Below, in pieces: positions 1 through 51,780 of a DNA stretch of 64,000 nt. Within the stretch, counting starts at the first letter, position 1. Every line of letters begins with the position of its first letter. Under the pieces are notes generated by a model. It saw nothing but the letters and a program-made list of their open reading frames with translations. It was not told where the DNA came from and ran no database searches. The DNA comes from the human T2T-CHM13v2.0 reference genome, Homo sapiens: the NCBI RefSeq assembly GCF_009914755.1, contig NC_060943.1; one strand, given 5' to 3'. Both the position numbers and the translations under genes were made by a program.

Positions 1-470
1 TTGAAGCAAAAAAATTAACAAAGATATCAGGACCTAAACTCAACATTTGACCAAATAGTCCTAACTGGCATCTATAGAACTGTCCAACTGAAATCAACAT
101 AGTATACATTCTTCTCATCACCACGTCACATACTCTAAAATTGACCACACAATCAGAAATAAAACAATCCTCAGCAAATTCAATTTTCCCAAAGTCATAC
201 CAAACACACACTTAGGCCACAGCTTTGTAAAGATATAATTCAATACAAAGAAAACCACTTCAAATTATCCAATTACATGGAAATTTAAAAACCTTCACCT
301 GAATGACTTTTGGGTAAATAATAAAATTAAGCAGAAATCAATAAGTTCTTTGAAACAAATAAGAAGAACAAAGATACACAAACCAGAATCGCTACAACAC
401 AGCCAAGGCAGTGTTAAGAAGGAAATTTATAGCACTAACTACTCACATCAAAAACTTAGAAATCAATTTA

Positions 471-3333: not shown

Positions 3334-3870
<537 letters not shown>

Positions 3871-3914: not shown

Positions 3915-4912
<998 letters not shown>

Positions 4913-42209: not shown

Positions 42210-42649
42210 CTACTCGGGAGGCTGAGGTGGGAGAATTGTTTGAACCCAGGAAGCGGTGGTAGCAGTGGCTGAGATTGTGCCACTGCACTCCAGCCTGAGC
42301 AAAAGAGTGAGACTCCATCTCAAAAAAAAAAAAAAAAAAAAACCCTCTCTCTCTCTTTGATTGTCACACCCAGGCTGGAGTGTGACAAAAACAAAACTAA
42401 TAGGTCAAATTCAGCATGCAGGAAGAAGCACAGGAAAATAGAGAGAGAAAAGAAAAAAGAAGAAAAACAACACCAAGTTACTCTAAGTACTGTGGAAATA
42501 AACTGAAAGTGGGGTTAGAGAAAAAAAGAAAGAAGAAGGTCCAAGTAGTTCCAGGTACTTGGGAGGCTGAGATGGGAAGACCAACTGGACGTGACCAGTG
42601 AATCACAGTCTGCATGGACCTGAATGGTACAGGCGCCAGTGAGAGCCAT

Positions 42650-42660
42650 CTGGTCGACCT
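42650..42660 (-). terminator. Intact Sal-box core AGGTCGACCAG (candidate TTF-I site)
   Basis: Plus strand ctggtcgacct. Identical to the 11-bp core of the mouse Sal box and one base from the human GGGTCGACCAG. Function untested. Confidence 0.5.
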
Positions 42661-43969
42661 TAGACATGGCAAGCTGACAGCCAGGTCCAAAGCTCATGGC
42701 CAACATCTCTCTCAAAATAAATAAACAAAAAACCAACAGTAAATTTTAACAATAACAAAGAAATAATAACAAGCAATAAGACCAATAAATAAGTAGAAGT
42801 AAACAAACGTAAAAGGTAATTAATATCACAATTAGTTGTTCTCTCTCTCTGTTTCTCAGTTTCTGTCTTTCTGTTTCTCTGTCTCTCTCTCCCTTGATCT
42901 CTGTGTGTCACACTATCACACCCAGGCTAGAGTGCAGGTGTATGGTTACAGCTCACTGTTGATTGCACACCTGCACTCAAGCCATGATGTGACAGAGTGA
43001 GAAGACCTAGCTAAATAGAAATATATATAACATCAACTTCAGCATCTAGGAAGGAGCATAAAAGATTTTAAAAAGAGAGAGAGAGAACAAAGGACACAAA
43101 AGAAAAACTACGGCAACTCTCTCTAAGTACTGTGGAAGCAAACTGAAAGTGGGGCTAGAAAAAAAACAGAGGAAGAAGGTTTGAGTAGTTTTACATACTT
43201 AGGAGGCTGAATGGAAAGACCACCAGGGTGAGACTGAGGAGATCAAGGCTATAGGGAATCACAATCACATCCTTCCTTTGGACCTGAAAAGTACTGCCAC
43301 TGGTTATAGCTATCTGGTCCACCTGAGACATGGCAAGCTGGCGGCCAAGTCCAATGCTCATGGCTGAAGTCTGTCTCAAAATAAATAAACTAACAACAGT
43401 AAATATTCAACAATAAAGAAATAATAAAAAACAATAATAAGACAAATAAGTGGGAGGGAACAAAGATAAAAGGTAATTAATATCACAATTAATTGTCTCT
43501 CTTTCTGTCTCTCTCTCCCTTGATCTCCATGTGTCACAGTTTCACACCCAGGCTGGAGTGCACATGTGTGGTCACAGCTCATTGCTGATCACTCACCTGC
43601 ACTCCAGCCAGGGCGTGACAGAGTGAGAAGACCCAGCTAAAAAAAAAAAAAAGAAATCTAAAACATCAGTTTCAGCGTGCAGAAAGGAGTGTAAGGAAAT
43701 GAAACAAAGAGAGCAAAGAACAAAGGAGAAAAACCACAGCAACTCCCTCTAAGTTCTGTGGAAGCAAACTGAAAGTGGAGTTGGAAAAAGAACAGAGGAA
43801 GATCCAAGCAGTTTCAGGTACTTAGGAGGCCGAGATGGATGGGAAGACCACCTGGGCAAGACCAGGGAGATCAATGCCACAATGAATCACAGTTGCATCT
43901 CTTTCCAGCCATGCTCAGTGGCTCACGCTTGTAATCCTGGTACTTTGGGAGGCCGAGGCGGGTGGATCA

Positions 43970-44218
<249 letters not shown>

Positions 44219-45067
44219 TTACCTGAGTAATATGAGCAATACTGCTGCCGGTGAGAGCTATCTGGCTGACCTTAGACAAGGCAAGCTGGCGGCCAGGTCC
44301 AATGCTCGCAGCTGACAACTGCCTCAAAATTAATAAACAAATGACCAACAGTAAATAATAATAACAGAGAAATGATAATGAACAATAATATGACCAATCA
44401 ATAAATAAATAAATGGGAGTGAACAAAGGTAAAAGGTAATTAATATCACAATTTATTGTTGTCTCTCTCTGTCTCTATTTCTCTGTCTGTTTCTGTCTGT
44501 CTGTGTCTCTGTCTGTCTTTCTGTCTCTCTCTTTGATCTCTGTATGTCACACTGTCAAACCCAGGCTGAGGTGAAGGTGTGCAGTCACAGCTCACTGCTG
44601 GTCATGCACCTGCACTCCAGCCAGGGTGTGACAGAGTGAGAAGACCTAGCTAAAAAAATATATATGTGTATAAAACATCAACTTCTGCATGCAGGAAAGA
44701 GCGTAAAAAAAATTAAAAAAAAAAAGAGAGACAGCAAAGAACAAAAAGAAAAACTACAGCAACTCTCTCAAAGTACTGTGGAAGCAAACTGAAAGTGGGG
44801 TTAGAAATAAAGCAGAGGAAGAAGGTCTGAGTAGTCCCAGGTACTCGGGAGGCCAAGATGGGAAGATCAGCCCCGTGAGACTGGGGAGATGCAGGCTGCA
44901 GTGAATCATGATCGCATCCCTCTGCTGGACCTGAATGGTACTGCTGCCAGCAAGAGCCAAATGGTCGACCTTAGACATGGCAAGCTGGCGACCAAGTCCA
45001 ACACTCGTGGCTGACATCTGTCATAAAATGTATAAACAAGAAAACCAACAATATATATATTTTTTGA

Positions 45068-45220
<153 letters not shown>

Positions 45221-46121
45221 TAGTTTTAGTAGAGATGGGGTTTCTCCATGTTGGTCTGGCTGGTCTCGAACTCCCGACCTCAGTTCATCCACCTGCCTCG
45301 GCCTCCCAAAGTGCTGAGATTACAGGCATGAGCCACCTCGCTCAGCCCATAAATATTTAAAAATAACAAAGAAATAACAATAACAAGACCAATAAATAAG
45401 TAAGTGGGAGTGAACAAAGGTAAAATGGAATTAATATCACAACTAATTGTTGTCTTTCTGTCTGTCTCTGTTTTGGTCTCTCTGCCACTGTCTGTGTCTC
45501 TGTCTCTCTGTCTATCCCTCTCTCCATCAATCTCTGTGTGTCACACTGTCACACACAGGCTGGAGGGCAAGGTCACGGTAATGACTCACTGCTGATTGAA
45601 CACCTACACTCCAGCCAGGGTGTGACAGAGTTAGAAGACCTACAAAAAATAAAATTAAATTAAACATCCATGTCAGTGTGGAGGAAAGAAGGTAGCAAAA
45701 AATAAAAGAAAAAAAGAAACAGAGCAAAGAACAAAGAATAAAGGCCACAGCAACTCCCCCTAAATACTGTGGAAGCAAAATGAAAGTGGGGGTAGAAAAA
45801 AAAAGTAGGAAGATGGACTGTGTAGTCCCAGGTAAATGGGAGGCTGAGATGGGAAAACCTTCCGGATGAGACCACGAAGATCGTTGCTGCATTGAATCAT
45901 GATTGTATCCCTCTGCTGGGCCTGAACAATAGTGCTGCCAATGAGAGCCATGTGGTCAACCTTGACACCAGCAAGAGCCATCAGTTTGACCTTAGACATG
46001 GTGAGCTGGCGACTAAGTCCAACACTCGCAGCCGACATATGTCACAAAATAAATATACAAAAAAAAACAACAGTAAATATTTAACAATAACTAAGAAATA
46101 ATAACAAACAATATTAAAGAC

Positions 46122-46609
46122 TGTTGGGAACAGGCTCCCAAATCTGGCCATAAACAGGCCCCAAAACTGGCCATAAACAAAATCTCTGCAGCACTGTGAC
46201 ATGCTTGTGATGGCTATGATGCCCATGCTGAAGGTTTTTGGTTTACCAGAATGAGGGCAAGGAACACCTGGCCAACCCAGGGTGGAAAGCCGCTTAAGGC
46301 ATTCCTAAACCATGAACAATAGCATGAGCAATCTGTGCCTTAAGGACATGTTCCTGCAGCAGATAACTAGCCAGAGCCCATCCCTTTGTTTCCCATAAGG
46401 AATGCTTTTAGTTAATCTATAATCTATAGAAACAATGCTTATCACTGGCTTGCTGTCAATAAATATGTGGGTAGCACTCTGTTTGTGGCGGTCAGCTCTG
46501 AAGGCTATCAGCCCCCTGATTCCCACTCTGCACTCTGTATCTGTGTCTGTGTCTTTAATTCCTCTAGCGCCACTGGGTTAGGGTCTCCACGACTGAGCTG
46601 GTCTCGGTA
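46122..46609 (+). mobile_element. MER9 solo LTR (HERV-K9/HML-3) inserted into array unit 5
   Basis: tgttgggaacaggctcccaaatctggccataaac...gctggtctcggta, flanked by a perfect 6-bp TSD AAAGAC (46116-46121 and 46610-46615). Confidence 0.9.
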
Positions 46610-49384
46610 AAAGACCAATAAATAAATGAGAGTGAACAAGGGTAAAAAATAATTAATATCACAATTAAGATATTCTTCTCTCTCTCTCTCTGATTATCAC
46701 ACTCAAGCTGGAGTGTGACAAAAATAAAAAAAATCTAAGAGGTCAACTTCAGCATGCAGAAAGGAACATAGAAAAATAGAGAAAACAACAAAGATTTAAA
46801 ACAACAGCAAGTCACTCTAACTACTGTGGAACAAACTGAAAGTGGGGTTAGAACAAAAACAGAGGAAGTAGGTCCTAGTAGTTGCAGGGACTCTAGAGGC
46901 TGAGATGGAAAGATCACCCATGTGAGAACAAGACTGAGGCTACAGAGAGTCATAATCACATCACTCTGCTGGACCTGAAACAGTATGGCCACCAGCGAGA
47001 ACCATCTGGTCAACCTTAGACATGGCAAGCTGGCAGCTAAGCCCAATGCTCATGGCTGATATCCATCAGAAAATATATAAGCAAAAAAACCAACAGTAAA
47101 TATTTAACAATATCAAAGAAATAATAACAAACAATACTAAACACCAGTAAATCAATAAGCAGGAGTCAACAAAGATAAAAAGTAATTAATATTACAAGTA
47201 AGATCTTCTTCACTCTCTCTCTCTCTCTCTCTTCATTTGTCACACCCAGCTGGAGTGTGACAAAAAAATCTAAAAGGTAAACTTAAGCATGTAGAAAGGT
47301 ATGTAGAATAGAGAGAGAAAGAAAACAAGTAAAATAACAGCAAGTCATTCTAAGTACTCTGGAAACAAACTGAAAGTGGGGTTAGAAAAAAAAAAAGGAA
47401 GAAGGTCTGAGTAGTCCCAGGTACTCATGAGGCCGAGATGGGAAGACCACCCAGGCAAGACTGGGGAGATCTCGATCACATCCCTCTACTGGACCTGAAG
47501 GGTACTGCCACAGGTGAGAACCATCTGGTCAACCTTAGACATGGCAAGCTGGTGGCTAAGACCAAGGGTCATGGCTGGCATCTGTCTCAAAATTAATAAA
47601 CAAAAATACCAACATTACACATTTAACAATAACAAAGAAATAACAATATTAAGGACCAATAAATAAATAAGTGGGAGTGAAAAAAATAAAAGGTAATTAA
47701 TATCACAGTTAAGATTTCCTCTCTCTCTCTCTCTCTCCTTTTGTCACACCCAGGCTGGAGTGTGACAAATAAAAAATAACCTAAAAATTCAACTGCAATG
47801 TGCGCAAAGGACTATAGGAAAATAGAGAAAAGAACAAACAAGAAAAACAACAGCAAGTCACTCTAAGTACTGTGGGACAAACTGAAAGTGGGGTTAGGAA
47901 AAAAAAAAGGAAGAAGGTCTGAGTAGTCCAAGGTACTCAGGAGGCTGAGATGGGAAAACCACCTGGGTGAGACTGGAAAGATCAAGGCTGCAGTGAATCA
48001 GGATGGCATCCGTCTGCTGGATCTAAGTGGGACTGCTGCTTGCAAGAGCCATCTGGTTGACCTTAGACATGGTGAAACATGAGGCATCTGGAGGACCTTA
48101 GACATGGCAAGGCAAGAGCCATCTGGTTGGCCATAGACATGGCAATCTGGTGGCTAAGCCCAATGCTCACAGCCGACAGCTGTCTCAAAATAAATAAACA
48201 AAAAACCCAACAATAAATATTTAACAATAACAAAGAAATAATAACAAACAATATTAAGGAAAATAAATGAGTGAAAAAGGTAAAGAGGATAATAAATATC
48301 ACAATCAATATTATCCCCTCTTTTTTTCTCTCTTTCTCCATTTGTCACACCCACGCTGGAGTGTGACAAAAAAAAATAGTTAACTTCAGCTTATAGGAAG
48401 GAGTGTAGGAAAATAGATAGAGAAAGAACAAAGAAGAAAAACAACAGCAAGTCACTAGAAATACTGTGGAAACAAACCGAAAGTGGCTTTAGAAAAAAAG
48501 AGAAAGAAGTTCCGAGTAGTCCCAGGTACTCAGGAGGCTGAGATGGGAAGACCACGCAGGTGGGACCAGGAAGACTGAGGCTGCAGAGAATCATGATCAC
48601 ATCCTTCTGCTGGACCTGAATGGTATTGCCACTTGGCAAGAGCCATGTGGTGAATCTTAGACATGGCAATGGAGGAGCCATCTTGTTGACCTCAGACATG
48701 TCAGGGCAAGAACCTTCTGGTCCTGCCTCCAGTTTCCCTCTCCAAAATGGATTTATGTTTTAATATATTTAATAATTCTAATATTGAAATAACTTTATTT
48801 AGTTTTTATTCATCAAAAATACTAATTTTCTGTATAATTAATGGTTAGATTTAATTTAATTAGATTTAAATGAGAAATTGCCACAATCAAAACTTTTTAA
48901 AAGTACAACTGTATTTTATAGTTATAAAATGTACAAAATATGCAAAAATTAAAAATAAATTTGTGACATATTAAAGTGTATCTGTGTCTGTAAGATTGAG
49001 AAACATAGTGGATAAGCACATTGTCTACTCCTGAAACTTTCTTTTTATAATGAGGTGACTTTAGAAATGTCATTCAGCCTTCTTTTGTTTAATATCTCCT
49101 CACCTGTAAAAAGGGAACAATAAAGCACGTTGTAGATTTATGATAAAAATACATGTAAAACTTGTTATAGTATTCTAGAGTAGTACTATAATATAGTGGG
49201 AATATATGTTTTTCTTTTTAGAACAAAACTGTTACAAAAAAAGGGGTTCAATAAAATATTTCTGAGTTGGAAACAATGGCAAGTATACGGCAGAATGTTT
49301 TGGTTTCCTCCATAAAGCAGACGTCATCTGTCCATGAAAGATCTCCTCACTTGGAATGAAATTATAAGTCACTTGAAAATAACA

Positions 49385-51780
49385 GATTGTCTCCAGTAAT
49401 ATAGCAGTAGGAATGATCTTATCTCAGACCATAGTTAAATAGCTGGGATTTTTTGTTTCTTGGCATCAGAGTTTTCTTTATTTACCACATGCACATTATG
49501 ATCCACAGATTTGATTCTCAAGCACCTGACTATGGCCAACTCCTTGGTACTCTCTAAAAAAAGTCCTTTAGATGATGACTGATTTGGAGTTGAAATATTT
49601 TCTCAGTAATATTAAATAGAAAGTGTTTTCTATGTTCAGAGAGTGGCCAGAGCATGTGCATTGACACCATCTGCCTCTTGAGTATCTCCCAGGCCATCAC
49701 CATCAGCCCCAAAAACCTCATGTGGGCATAGCTTAAACTACATGATTCCAAATATATTTGAATCTCTAATATCCAAATTATGTGCTGAATTCTGAATAGG
49801 CTTATAAATGTCATTTTTCCTATGTATGTTACTGGCAAATGGAACACAATAAACAACACAAAAATTATTTAAAACACTGTTCTGGAGTAGTTAATAACAG
49901 AATTCCACATTTATCACATGTTGTGCTTTTATTATTTTTTAATGTTTTGTGTTTGGAACTTTTAACCTGGGCCAGCAGCTCCATGACTTTTATCCTGTTC
50001 AACACAAGTAGTGGGGTCCAACACATTCATAGGTCCAACACCACTCCTAAATTCTCACCTGAGTCCACAGTCACCCAAAACATCTTTGTCCTAAGGAGCA
50101 CCTTTGTATTATTTTACACTCTCTTCTACATCTTTTCAGTATATACGTTTTTTTTAATTTTTTTATTTTTTTATTTTTTAGTATTTATTGATCATTCTTG
50201 GGTGTTTCTCAGAGAGGGGGATTTGGCAGGGTCATAGGACAATAGTGGAGGGAAGGTCAGCAGATAAACATGTGAACAAGGGTCTCTGGTTTTCCTAGGC
50301 AGAGGGCCCTGCTGCCTTCCGCAGTGTTTGTGTCCCTGGGTACTTGAGATTAGGGAGTGGTGATGACTCTTAACAAGCATGCTGCCTTCAAGCATCTGTT
50401 TCACAAAGCACATCTTGCACCGCCCTTAATCCATTTAACCCTGAGTGGACATAGCACATGTTTCAGAGCACGGGGTTGGGGGTAAGGTTATAGATTAACA
50501 GCATCCCAAGGCAGAAGAATTTTTCTTAGTACAGAACAAAATGGAGTCTCCTATGTGTACTTCTTTCTATACAGGCACAGTAACAATCTGATCTCTTTCT
50601 TTTCCCCACATTTCCCCCTTTTCTATTAGACAAAACCGCCATCGTCATCATGGCCCTTTCTCAATGAGCTGTTGGGTACACCTCCCAGACGGGGTGGCGG
50701 CCGGGCAGAGGGGCTCCTCACCTCCCAGACGGGGCGGCTGGGCAGAGGCGCCCCCCATCTCCGGGACAGGGTGGCAGCCAGGCGGGGGCTGCCCCCACCT
50801 CCCTCCCGGACTGGGCAGCTGCTGGGCGGAGACGCTCCTCACTTCCCAGATGGGGCGGCTGCCGGATGGAGGGGCTCCTCACTTCCCCGACGGGGCGGCT
50901 GCCGGGTGGAGGGGCTCCTCACTTCTCAGACGGGGTGGCCGGGCAGAGACGCTCCTCACCTCCCAGACGGGGTGGCGGTCGGGCAGGGACACTCCTCACC
51001 TCCCAGATGGGGTGGCGGTCGGGCAGAGGTGCTCCTCACATCCCAGACGGGGCGGCCGGGCAGAGACGCTCCTCACTTCCTAGACAGGATGGCAGCCGGG
51101 AAGAGGCGCTCCTCACTTCCCAGACTGGGCAGCCGGGCAGAGGGGCTCCTCACATTCCAGACGATGGGTGGCCAGGCAGAGACGGTCCTCACTTCCCAGA
51201 CGGGGTGGCGACCGGGCAGAGGCTGCAATCTCAGCACTTTGGGAGGCCAAGGCAGGCGGCTGGGAGGTGGAGGTTGTAGCGAGCGGAGATCACGCCACTG
51301 CACTCCAGCCTGGTCAAGATTGAGCACTGAGTGAGCGAGACTCCGTCTGCAATCCCGGCACCCGGGGAGGCCCAGGCGGGCAGATCACTCGCGGTCAGGA
51401 GCTGGAGACCAGCCCGGCCAACATGGTGAAACCCCATCTCCACCAAAAAATACAAAAACCAGTCAGGCGTGGCGGTGCGCGCCTGCAATCCCAGGCACTG
51501 GCAGGCTGAGGCAGGAGAATGAGGCAGGGAGGTTGCAGTGAGCCGAGATGGCGGCAGTACAGTCCAGCCTCCACTCGGCATCAGAGGGAGACCATGGAAA
51601 GTGGGAGACGGGAGAGGGGGAGGGGGAGGGGGAGGGGGAAGGGGAGGGTTCTTTTTTATAATCCAAGTTGTTGGCTTATGAAAAACTCTAAACTGATCAC
51701 TGCTTGTTTTTTCTATAGTCAGGTCCATTGTTCTCATAAGCCATGACCCCAGAATATCCAGGATAACCTCTTCCTGCTAT
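49385..51780 (+). pseudogene. Vomeronasal type-1 receptor (VN1R-family) pseudogene, split by an SVA into ~49385-50147 and ~51648-51780
   Basis: V1R motifs in shifting frames: STDLILKHLTMANSLV (~49503), FYVQRVAR (~49628), TICLLSISQAITISP (~49666), WASSSMTFILF, VQHIHR, SPESTVTQNIFVL; after the SVA, LFYNPSCWLMKNSKLITACF and PLFS/VLISHDPRISR-like TM7 and tail sequence. Multiple stops and frameshifts. Confidence 0.9.
50148..51647 (-). mobile_element. Full-structure SVA retrotransposon, probably an older subfamily (A-C), with a short VNTR
   Basis: Left to right on the plus strand: poly-T tail (50148-50179), SINE-R (~50180-50675), GC-rich VNTR (~50680-51220), Alu-like domain (~51220-51590), hexamer-like (GGGGGA/GGGAGA)n head (51602-51647); degenerate TSD gttttttttaa / gttcttttttat. 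Confidence 0.95.

What the first reader, a model, noticed from the sequence alone, without database searches (positions are those of the whole stretch)
42520..42730. The unit suggests the primate rDNA terminator repeat is built on an Alu monomer
Seen: on the plus strand each unit runs as an Alu right-arm/FLAM-like body (tagtcccaggtactcgggaggctgagatgggaagatc...ggctgcagtgaatcatgatcgc), then ~95 bp of non-Alu sequence containing the Sal box where ccagcctgggcgacagagcgaga would be, then the normal Alu end ctgtctcaaaataaataaa. Inference: if the array is homologous to rDNA R-repeats, the Sal box was captured inside an antisense Alu and the composite was amplified. The Alu ancestry would be mostly hidden in the GC-richer modern rDNA but preserved here, which would mean a SINE was incorporated into the Pol I terminator / fork-barrier architecture.
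Basis: partly seen in the sequence, partly recalled or inferred. Interest (0 to 1): 0.8.

Follow-up and report, generated by a model that had tools for sequence, protein, structure and literature searches.

The report
Fossil rDNA terminator repeats on chr19
A decayed tandem repeat on human chromosome 19 is an old copy of the ribosomal-gene terminator repeat, and it preserves a short Alu-derived piece that is almost unrecognisable in today's ribosomal DNA.

Summary
Window 42520-42730 is the 3' half of unit 1 of a nine-unit tandem array (about 42340-48730; profile hits 42350-48669; units about 520-660 bp), found almost only on chr19.

**rDNA homology: supported.** A profile of the family hits all 4 R (Sal-box terminator) repeats of one rDNA unit, on the opposite strand (nhmmer E 4.6e-7 to 2.9e-4). 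Consensus versus R repeat scores z 21.8 (0 of 500 shuffles); the wrong orientation scores z 0.

**Alu piece in the chr19 unit: supported.** About 90 nt of each unit matches the Alu right arm (E 5e-10). It lies between two blocks that are strongly homologous to R.

**Alu piece in modern R repeats: probable.** Over the whole R unit Alu similarity is not significant.

**Sal box captured inside an Alu: not shown.**
- The "Alu end" is non-significant without its A-tail.
- Part of it is R-homologous sequence.
- It has no counterpart in R.

**Verdict.** This is a fossil copy of the Pol I terminator repeat with an older-looking sequence state and no shown function. My searches found no description of the homology or the Alu relic. 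Interest is moderate.

The parts
42340..48730 (+). Tandem array of nine units of a chr19 satellite family, a paralogue of the rDNA R repeat. The window's + strand corresponds to the rDNA - strand.
   Evidence: Direct-repeat families with spacings of about 520-660 bp. Profile hits at 42350-42733, 42813-43396, 43470-43905 plus 44202-44342, 44433-45045, 45424-46064, 46696-47090, 47241-47609, 47741-48207 and 48327-48669.
42520..42730 (+). The reported stretch: the 3' half of unit 1. It holds a shortened Alu-like body (about 42546-42612), the Sal-box segment and an A-rich end.
   Evidence: Sequence; profile hit 42350-42733 covers profile positions 162-580.
42650..42660 (-). Best-kept Sal-box-like 11-mer in the window, AGGTCGACCAG. 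It matches 10 of 11 bases of the human terminator consensus GGGTCGACCAG.
   Evidence: the only site in the 64-kb window with 1 mismatch or fewer. The consensus is quoted from the S3 Fig legend of PMC6281188.
44433..45045 (+). Unit 4, the best-preserved long unit (10% from the consensus over profile positions 283-556).
   Evidence: Profile positions 2-581, E 3.9e-172; 28 of 274 differences from the consensus.
44745..44828 (+). Non-Alu block of unit 4, homologous to the R-repeat segment ...cagccccaccgcgagtttgcgtccgcgggacttttaagagggagtcactgc (reverse strand).
   Evidence: nhmmer alignment of profile positions 298-393 to L035. This block alone scores z 11.3, 0 of 500 shuffles. Identity to R is 44 of 73.
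44829..44920 (+). Alu right-arm-like fragment of unit 4 (Alu positions of about 158-250).
   Evidence: Alu profile against the family consensus, E 5.1e-10. The consensus is 65% identical to Alu over 102 columns. No signal-recognition-particle covariance-model hit falls on any of the nine units at E<=1.
44921..45012 (+). Sal-box segment of unit 4, homologous to the third Sal-box subrepeat of the R repeat. The core GGTCGACC is at 44963-44970.
   Evidence: This block scores z 14.8, 0 of 500 shuffles. The consensus matches R at 52 of 78 positions with no gaps. Core position.
45013..45045 (+).
   Evidence: Significant only when the A-tail is counted. Its first 8 bases align to R sequence.
44540..44650 (+). 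Inverted pair of Alu 3'-end-like pieces followed by an A-run. Present in the long units 2-5 and collapsed to about 30 nt in the short units 1 and 6-9.
   Evidence: Alu profile hits on the consensus at positions 164-110 (- strand, E 8.2e-6) and 164-205 (+ strand, E 0.028). Unit extents; sequences.
43908..44201 (+). Later full-length Alu inserted into unit 3.
   Evidence: Alu profile positions 2-291, E 9.5e-92; signal-recognition-particle model hits.
45052..45350 (-). Later full-length Alu inserted between units 4 and 5.
   Evidence: Alu profile positions 2-290, E 1.7e-88; signal-recognition-particle model hits.
46120..46600 (.). Unrelated insertion of about 480 bp in the A-rich part between units 5 and 6. 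Its nature was not identified.
   Evidence: No family-profile hit covers it. A 23-bp tandem duplication lies at 46129-46179. Sequence.

Best explanation
The stretch belongs to a fossil copy of the RNA polymerase I terminator repeats.

Shown:
- A nine-unit array at about 42340-48730 belongs to a small family found almost only on chr19.
- Its core of about 270 bp is homologous, on the opposite strand, to the core of the rDNA R repeat.
- In rDNA orientation both run: Sal-box subrepeat, then about 80-90 nt that in chr19 is a clear antisense Alu right-arm fragment, then a unique segment, then a pyrimidine-rich tract.

Inferred:
- A piece of rDNA spacer carrying R repeats escaped to chr19 heterochromatin tens of millions of years ago.
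- It was amplified and copied along with the zinc-finger gene cluster.
- It has since decayed neutrally, losing CpGs and most of its Sal boxes.
- The rDNA copies kept changing under concerted evolution and became GC-rich.
- The Alu fragment was therefore already next to the Sal-box segment in the common ancestor, and modern R repeats carry a nearly erased relic of it.

The evidence does not show that the Sal box was inserted into an Alu. No present function of the chr19 array is shown, and I expect none.
For: - The family profile (82 hits, none from rDNA) was searched against one whole rDNA unit (50 kb, both strands). All 4 of 4 R repeats were hit at the same place on the minus strand, E 4.6e-7, 5.3e-6, 2.9e-4 and 2.9e-4. 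One more colinear weak hit lies over the Sal box (E 3). Every other hit with E<=0.001 lies on an Alu-like part of the profile (positions 81-171 or 339-461), outside the R repeats.
- Smith-Waterman score of the consensus against R (reverse complement) is 103.5, against 25.8 +/- 3.6 in 500 dinucleotide shuffles (z 21.8, 0 of 500). The same-strand control gives z 0.0.
- A natural single copy on chromosome 6 gives z 17.2, 0 of 1000.
- The blocks on either side of the Alu-like piece are independently significant: z 11.3 and z 14.8.
- The Alu-like piece is significant against a profile of 60 Alus from outside the array, E 5.1e-10.
- The R interior between the two flanks is 77 nt, against about 90-105 nt in chr19.
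- The R interior resembles the chr19 interior (z 3.7, 2 of 1000). It also resembles the Alu right arm in the expected register (z 3.7, 3 of 1000).
- The best Alu-profile hit in each of the 4 R repeats falls at that same site and strand.
- Decay: window units hold 1-7 CpG each against 19 in the consensus. Mean pairwise distance is 0.215 over 36 pairs.
Against: - The Alu-like interior is the least conserved block between chr19 and R: 55 of 101 identical, against 44 of 73 and 52 of 78 in the flanks. On its own against the whole R unit it reaches only z 3.2, 4 of 500.
- Alu against the whole R unit is not significant: z 1.3, 63 of 500; nhmmer E 0.8-2.6.
- A semi-global alignment of Alu to the R interior gives z 1.7, 75 of 1000.
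- Two alignment methods place the gaps in the interior differently.
- The 4 R repeats are near-identical, so they are not independent. Only one species and one rDNA unit were examined.
- The pyrimidine (CT) tract of the chr19 unit lies on the strand opposite to what a simple inversion of the whole R unit would give. This is unexplained.
Confidence: 0.65

Rival explanations
1. The array is a true paralogue of the R repeat, but the Alu-like piece was acquired or converted locally in the chr19 lineage. On this view the R repeats never contained Alu sequence.
For: - Direct Alu-to-R similarity over the whole unit is not significant.
- The interior is the weakest block between chr19 and R.
- The array lies among many Alus that could act as conversion donors: 60 in the window outside the array.
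Against: - The nhmmer alignment between chr19 and R runs about 28 nt into the Alu-like piece with high posterior probability.
- R has an interior of similar length.
- The R interior matches Alu in the expected register, 3 of 1000 shuffles.
- R agrees with Alu against the chr19 consensus at 10 of 96 columns, for example CAGCT against CAGGT.
- The Alu-like piece is present in the single copies on chromosomes 5 and 6 as well.
Confidence: 0.18
2. A Sal-box segment was captured inside an antisense Alu monomer, with the Alu body on one side and the Alu end and tail on the other. This composite was then amplified to form the R repeats.
For: - In chr19, GACATCTGTCTCAAAATAAA matches the Alu end plus tail: z 4.0, reached by 2 of 1000 shuffles and 1 of 1821 natural window tiles.
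- With long insertions allowed, the Alu right arm can be threaded through the unit: score 92 against 26.8 +/- 4.1.
Against: - Most of that score comes from the Alu body alone (76.0 without the long gap).
- Without the A-tail the Alu 3' end gives z 0.1-0.6 in chr19 and z -1.3 and -0.3 in R.
- The split-Alu test on R gives z 1.3.
- The first 8 bases of the 'Alu end' align to R sequence that precedes R's second Sal box.
- From recall, not tested here: the Sal box is shared with mouse and so is older than Alu.
Confidence: 0.12
3. There is no rDNA ancestry. The array is just an Alu-containing local satellite, and the Sal-box and R-repeat resemblance is chance or a composition effect.
For: - blastn at ordinary sensitivity does not find the homology.
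- Identity to R is only 54-67%.
Against: - z 21.8 with dinucleotide-preserving shuffles, against z 0 for the wrong strand.
- nhmmer E-values with bias correction down to 4.6e-7.
- Three colinear blocks.
- An independent natural copy gives z 17.2.
- No profile hit of comparable strength (E<=0.001) falls in the rDNA unit, including the GC-rich coding and spacer parts, other than the R repeats and the hits to the profile's Alu-like parts.
Confidence: 0.03
4. The chr19 arrays are still functional. Their Sal-box-like sites would bind the termination factor TTF-I and act as fork barriers, or as tethers to the nucleolus.
For: - Sister arrays keep many AGGTCGACCAG sites: 9 in L042 and 8 in L043. These include a 35-bp minisatellite of about 34 copies.
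- A large part of chromosome 19 and zinc-finger gene clusters are nucleolus-associated (PMC2845662, passages read).
Against: - In this window only 1 of 9 units keeps the 11-mer with 1 mismatch or fewer.
- The units diverge at neutral-looking rates and have lost their CpGs.
- No binding data were available.
Confidence: 0.07

Closest known systems
rDNA R repeats (Sal-box terminator and fork-barrier repeats downstream of 28S)
   Same: - A homologous core of about 270 bp in the same internal order: Sal-box subrepeat, Alu-like interior, unique block, pyrimidine-rich tract.
- Tandem organisation.
- The Sal-box subrepeat is itself multiplied in some units.

   Different: - Located on chr19, not in an rDNA array, and on the opposite strand relative to its CT tract.
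- 50-55% GC against 71% over the aligned core (window unit 4 50%, family consensus 55%, R 71%); window units overall are 42-46% GC.
- 54-67% identity to R.
- Usually one Sal-box segment per unit against three in R, mostly decayed.
- Carries extra parts not found in R: an inverted pair of Alu 3'-end pieces and a long A-rich spacer.
Degraded rDNA units and fragments near human centromeres (Robicheau et al. 2017, PMC5381670; abstract and passages read)
   Same: rDNA-derived sequence that escaped concerted evolution and decays in pericentromeric DNA.
   Different: - That study used BLAST-level similarity.
- Its main text has 0 occurrences of chromosome 19, R repeat, Sal box or terminator.
- The sequence here is much older. 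It is only detectable with a profile and has been re-amplified as a satellite.
Alu right monomer (free right Alu monomer / AluJ-like right arm)
   Same: About 90 nt match Alu positions 158-246. This includes the stretch present only in the right arm.
   Different: - A fragment only: there is no recognisable 5' end.
- The 3' end is doubtful.
- None of the nine units is hit by the signal-recognition-particle covariance model.
- The subfamily could not be assigned because no Dfam models were available.
SATR1 satellite
   Same: A primate satellite of comparable unit length; 589-bp SATR1 arrays are reported in macaque (10.1101/2025.08.04.668424, passages read).
   Different: - An unrelated sequence.
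- Published SATR1 primers (PMC3606032, Table S1) have 0 matches in the window with up to 3 mismatches.
- One of the two primers (SATR1_L), searched with up to 1 mismatch, has 1191 sites spread over many chromosomes.
- The family profile has 0 hits at E<=1 in 4 loci around such sites.

Membership tests
rDNA R repeat | Sequence homology to the non-simple core of the R unit | tested here: met
   nhmmer hits 4 of 4 R repeats, E 4.6e-7 to 2.9e-4. z 21.8, 0 of 500 shuffles. The chromosome 6 single copy gives z 17.2.
rDNA R repeat | Lies in the rDNA intergenic spacer just downstream of 28S | tested here: not met
   The window is chr19:23.37-23.44 Mb. After masking Alus, blastn of the window against the rDNA unit gives 6 hits, none in or beside the array.
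rDNA R repeat | Carries the Sal box GGGTCGACCAG | tested here: inconclusive
   The family consensus has AGGTCGACCAG, 10 of 11 bases. In the window, 1 of 9 units has 1 mismatch or fewer. Five further sites in four other units, at the homologous unit position, have 2 mismatches; a sixth 2-mismatch site (46268) lies in the unrelated insert. R itself has 9 exact sites and 4 with one mismatch in 3.5 kb.
rDNA R repeat | Binds TTF-I, terminates Pol I and arrests replication forks | not testable with these tools
   No binding or functional data were available.
Alu (right monomer) | Significant similarity to the Alu right arm | tested here: met
   E 5.1e-10 for Alu positions 158-246. The right arm scores 75.5 (z 17.7) against 54.5 for the left arm.
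Alu (right monomer) | Complete monomer with its 3' end and A-tail in continuity | tested here: inconclusive
   The 3' end without the tail gives z 0.1-0.6. With the tail it gives z 4.0. About 90 nt of non-Alu sequence lie in between.
Alu relic inside modern R repeats | Alu similarity detectable in R itself | tested here: inconclusive
   Whole R unit: z 1.3 and E 0.8-2.6. Syntenic 77-nt interior: local alignment z 3.7, 3 of 1000; semi-global z 1.7, 75 of 1000.
SATR1 | Matches the SATR1 consensus (published primers; natural SATR1 loci) | tested here: not met

The most novel reading that the evidence does not exclude
The chr19 arrays would be a snapshot of that ancestral state. Some of them, such as the 35-bp Sal-box minisatellite at C19:24.145 Mb, would still recruit TTF-I and contribute to the nucleolar association of the chr19 zinc-finger heterochromatin.
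Probability: 0.1. Interest if true: 0.8.

Novelty: new variant of a known kind. Interest (0 to 1): 0.5.

Why it matters
R repeats hold the human Pol I terminators and the replication fork barrier, yet their origin is undescribed in the papers I could read. A paralogue that left the rDNA long ago escaped concerted evolution, so it serves as an outgroup for reconstructing how the terminator region was assembled. It already suggests that a short interspersed element (SINE) fragment lay beside the Sal boxes before the repeat was amplified.

It also adds an old, re-amplified example to the known class of rDNA relics near centromeres. In addition, it identifies clusters of Sal-box-like sites outside rDNA that could be checked for TTF-I binding.

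The practical consequences are modest. No function is shown for the chr19 array.

Tried and rejected
- **SATR1 identity: rejected.** The published primers and the profile search both fail.
- **Remnant of the 7SL S domain in the non-Alu segment.** No signal-recognition-particle covariance-model hit on any of the nine units at E<=1, while all the true Alus nearby were hit. A direct comparison with a 7SL gene could not be made, because the genome search with RF00017 gave no answer twice.
- **Larger rDNA fragment around the array: not found.** blastn of the Alu-masked window against the Alu-masked rDNA unit gave 6 hits, all elsewhere.
- **Plain blastn of the array against rDNA.** It returned only Alus and CT microsatellite.
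- **Split-Alu threading through R: not significant**.
- **Same-strand similarity.**
  - The CT-tract side of the chromosome 6 copy against the start of the R unit gives a weak z 2.7, 21 of 1000.
  - Consensus positions 91-170 against R give z -1.5 on the + strand and z 0.7 on the reverse complement.
  - I keep this as a lead only.
- **Literature.** None of these searches returned a paper that describes an Alu origin of R repeats or a chr19 paralogue:
  - 'R repeats' + 'Sal box' + 'intergenic spacer' + 'Alu';
  - rDNA + intergenic spacer + chromosome 19 + pericentromeric + rDNA-like;
  - R repeat, butterfly repeat and long repeat;
  - Sal box + TTF-I + ChIP-seq;
  - rDNA-like pseudogenes.
- **Supplements.** The Alu table and the Sal-box figure of PMC6281188 are not held as text. 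A term search of its 4 held supplementary files found nothing relevant.
Full report
**Observation**

The sequence at 42520-42730 is the 3' half of the first unit of a tandem array. Direct-repeat analysis gives families spaced about 520-660 bp between about 42340 and 48730. A family profile places nine units in the window:

| Unit | Window coordinates | Note |
|---|---|---|
| 1 | 42350-42733 | short form |
| 2 | 42813-43396 | long form |
| 3 | 43470-43905 plus 44202-44342 | split by a later Alu |
| 4 | 44433-45045 | long form, best preserved |
| 5 | 45424-46064 | long form |
| 6 | 46696-47090 | short form |
| 7 | 47241-47609 | short form |
| 8 | 47741-48207 | short form |
| 9 | 48327-48669 | short form |

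Two full-length Alus (43908-44201 and 45052-45350) and an unidentified insert of about 480 bp (46120-46600) interrupt the array.

- The 37-mer has no exact match anywhere in the window. Its first 22 nt occur once, at 44832.
- 'ggctgcagtgaatcatgatcgc' occurs once, at 44894.
- 'ctgtctcaaaataaataaa' occurs at 43371 and 48180.

Exact GGTCGACC survives in 2 of 9 units, at 42652 and 44963. The other units carry variants such as GGTCAACC and GGTTGACC, consistent with CpG decay.

**The family**

A 341-nt query from unit 4 found copies almost only on chromosome 19. There are arrays near 23.41 (this window), 23.56-23.58, 24.14 and 30.30 Mb, plus single fragments on C5 and C6 (52 matches; 40 of 263 first-look candidates scored). 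A 156-nt query without any Alu-like sequence gave 59 candidates. Of the 40 scored, 36 lie on C19 and one each on C6, C7, C10 and C22.

I fetched the sister arrays and the single copies. From 82 hits I built a 582-position profile that contains no rDNA sequence.

The family is not SATR1:
- The published SATR1 primers (PMC3606032, Table S1, read) have no match in the window with up to 3 mismatches.
- One of them (SATR1_L), searched with up to 1 mismatch, has 1191 sites dispersed over many chromosomes.
- The family profile finds nothing at E<=1 in 4 loci around such sites.

**Homology to the rDNA terminator repeats**

I located rDNA through 5.8S (period 46,970 bp on C13) and fetched one whole unit as five 10-kb loci. 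The R repeats lie at about L035 1700-4750. GGTCGACC occurs there 14 times, and the repeat period is about 830 bp.

- The family profile, searched against the 50 kb on both strands, hit all 4 of 4 R repeats at the same relative place on the minus strand. Profile positions 298-393 matched with E 4.6e-7, 5.3e-6, 2.9e-4 and 2.9e-4.
- One more colinear weak hit lies across a Sal box (profile 497-552, E 3).
- Every other hit with E<=0.001 lies on an Alu-like part of the profile (positions 81-171 or 339-461), outside the R repeats.
- A Smith-Waterman comparison of the consensus with the non-simple 470 nt of one R repeat, reverse-complemented, scores 103.5. Five hundred dinucleotide-preserving shuffles give 25.8 +/- 3.6 (z 21.8, 0 of 500). 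The same-strand control gives z 0.0.
- The natural single copy on C6 gives z 17.2, 0 of 1000.
- The alignment runs colinearly from the unique block, through the Alu-like piece, to the Sal-box segment. Identities are 44 of 73, 55 of 101 and 52 of 78.

The rDNA homology that the finding depends on therefore holds. The window's + strand equals the rDNA - strand.

**The Alu-like piece**

A profile of 60 Alus from the window outside the array matches consensus positions 364-457 to Alu positions 158-246, with E 5.1e-10. The right arm fits better than the left, 75.5 against 54.5. The piece is therefore right-monomer-like, not FLAM-like. It is a fragment: the signal-recognition-particle covariance model hits every true Alu nearby but none of the nine units at E<=1.

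A second Alu-derived feature is an inverted pair of Alu 3'-end pieces followed by an A-run (consensus about 110-215). Its two arms score E 8.2e-6 and E 0.028. It is present in the long units 2-5 and collapsed in the short units.

**Is the Alu piece also in the R repeats?**

Tested directly over the whole R unit, no:
- Alu against R gives z 1.3, 63 of 500.
- The Alu profile gives only E 0.8-2.6 in each R repeat.

Four observations nevertheless point the other way:
- Those weak hits fall, in all 4 repeats, exactly at the site and strand where the chr19 Alu-like piece aligns (L035 about 2111-2142, 2942-2973, 3771-3803 and 4469-4502).
- The significant nhmmer alignment between chr19 and R continues about 28 nt into the Alu-like piece.
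- The R interval between the two strongly homologous flanks is 77 nt long, close to the chr19 length. It resembles the chr19 interior (z 3.7, 2 of 1000). It also resembles the Alu right arm in the expected register (z 3.7, 3 of 1000). The semi-global version of the Alu test is weaker (z 1.7, 75 of 1000).
- In a four-way alignment R agrees with Alu against the chr19 consensus at 10 of 96 columns, for example CAGCT against CAGGT. The C6 copy also has CAGCT.

I put about 0.7 on the R repeats carrying a relic of the same Alu fragment.

**Is the Sal box inside an Alu?**

This part is not supported.
- Without the A-tail, the Alu 3' end is not detectable after the Sal segment in chr19 (z 0.1 and 0.6). 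It is not detectable in R either (z -1.3 and -0.3).
- With the tail, the 20-mer GACATCTGTCTCAAAATAAA does stand out: z 4.0, 2 of 1000 shuffles and 1 of 1821 natural tiles. However, its first 8 bases align to R's GGCAGCTG, which in R is followed by the second Sal box.
- Threading an Alu through R with a free long insertion gives z 1.3.

The defensible statement is that an Alu right-arm fragment lies next to the Sal-box segment in the shared core. The evidence does not show that the repeat is an Alu with a Sal box captured inside it.

**What it is and how it came about (inferred)**

- The array is a fossil of the Pol I terminator repeats. It left the rDNA and was re-amplified on chr19.
- It decays neutrally. 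Window units hold 1-7 CpG each against 19 in the consensus. They differ 10-21% from the consensus, and mean pairwise distance is 0.215 over 36 pairs.
- That level of divergence suggests an age of tens of millions of years. This is my estimate and is not calibrated.
- Degraded rDNA near human centromeres is a known phenomenon (PMC5381670, abstract and passages). A large part of chromosome 19 and the zinc-finger clusters associate with the nucleolus (PMC2845662, passages). That proximity gives a plausible opportunity for the transfer.
- No function is shown for the array.

**Literature**

Passages of PMC11931683, PMC8559705 and PMC6281188 describe R repeats, Sal boxes, TTF-I and the fork barrier. 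None mentions an Alu component or a chr19 relative. PMC5381670 has 0 occurrences of chromosome 19, R repeat, Sal box or terminator in its main text. Five searches returned nothing closer.

Three sources could bear on novelty, and I could not consult them:
- the Alu table and the Sal-box figure of PMC6281188;
- the older subscription papers on the spacer, La Volpe 1985 and Gonzalez and Sylvester 1995 (both recalled, not read);
- Dfam annotations.

**Limits**

- Only one species and one rDNA unit were examined, and its R copies are near-identical.
- No curated Alu subfamily models were available.
- The interior alignment is ambiguous in its gap placement.
- The CT tract of the chr19 unit lies on the strand opposite to that expected from a simple inversion of an R unit. 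I cannot explain this.

Noticed in passing
L042 6247-7427 (G000:C19:24,145,247-24,146,427); also L042 5948-6113: The 35-bp Sal-box subrepeat (GAGCCATCTGGTCGACCTCAGACATGGCAAGGCGA) is expanded into a minisatellite of about 34 copies. L042 holds 9 sites of AGGTCGACCAG and L043 holds 8, far more than this window. These are possible TTF-I sites outside rDNA.
   Followed up: partly
L045 1975-2125 (G000:C5, about 40.424 Mb): A 151-bp fragment of the family (profile 286-436, E 3.5e-47) lies alone between unrelated sequence with sharp borders. It may be a fragment captured through an RNA intermediate. This was not examined.
   Followed up: no
L046 1894-2460 (G000:C6, about 135.381 Mb): A single copy, very close to the family consensus over profile 200-423, is preceded by a (CCCCT)n-like tract of about 250 bp. 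It has CAGCT, as Alu and R do, where the chr19 consensus has CAGGT. Its CT-tract side shows weak same-strand similarity to the start of the R unit: z 2.7, 21 of 1000.
   Followed up: partly
window 42355-42395, 46690-46725, 47225-47265, 47735-47775, 48335-48375 versus 42895-43010, 43525-43650, 44540-44650, 45530-45645: There are two unit forms. Long units carry an inverted pair of Alu 3'-end pieces. Short units have it collapsed to about 30 nt (gtcacacccaggctggagtgtgacaaaaa), as expected from deletion within a palindrome.
   Followed up: partly
L035 4741-4940 (rDNA, just after the last R repeat): A truncated antisense Alu begins at the exact point (after ccttggtgccttctcggctc) where each R repeat would start its Sal-box part. 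The Alu profile matches positions 197-244 with E 1.8e-5.
   Followed up: no
window 46120-46600: An unrelated insert of about 480 bp within the array, with a 23-bp tandem duplication at 46129-46179. Its family was not identified.
   Followed up: no
window 50145-51650: A composite element with a tandem repeat of about 37-40 bp (families D2 and D6), Alu-like sequence and a G-rich hexamer run at its end. It looks like an SVA-type element and overlaps the annotated span of VN1R91P.
   Followed up: no
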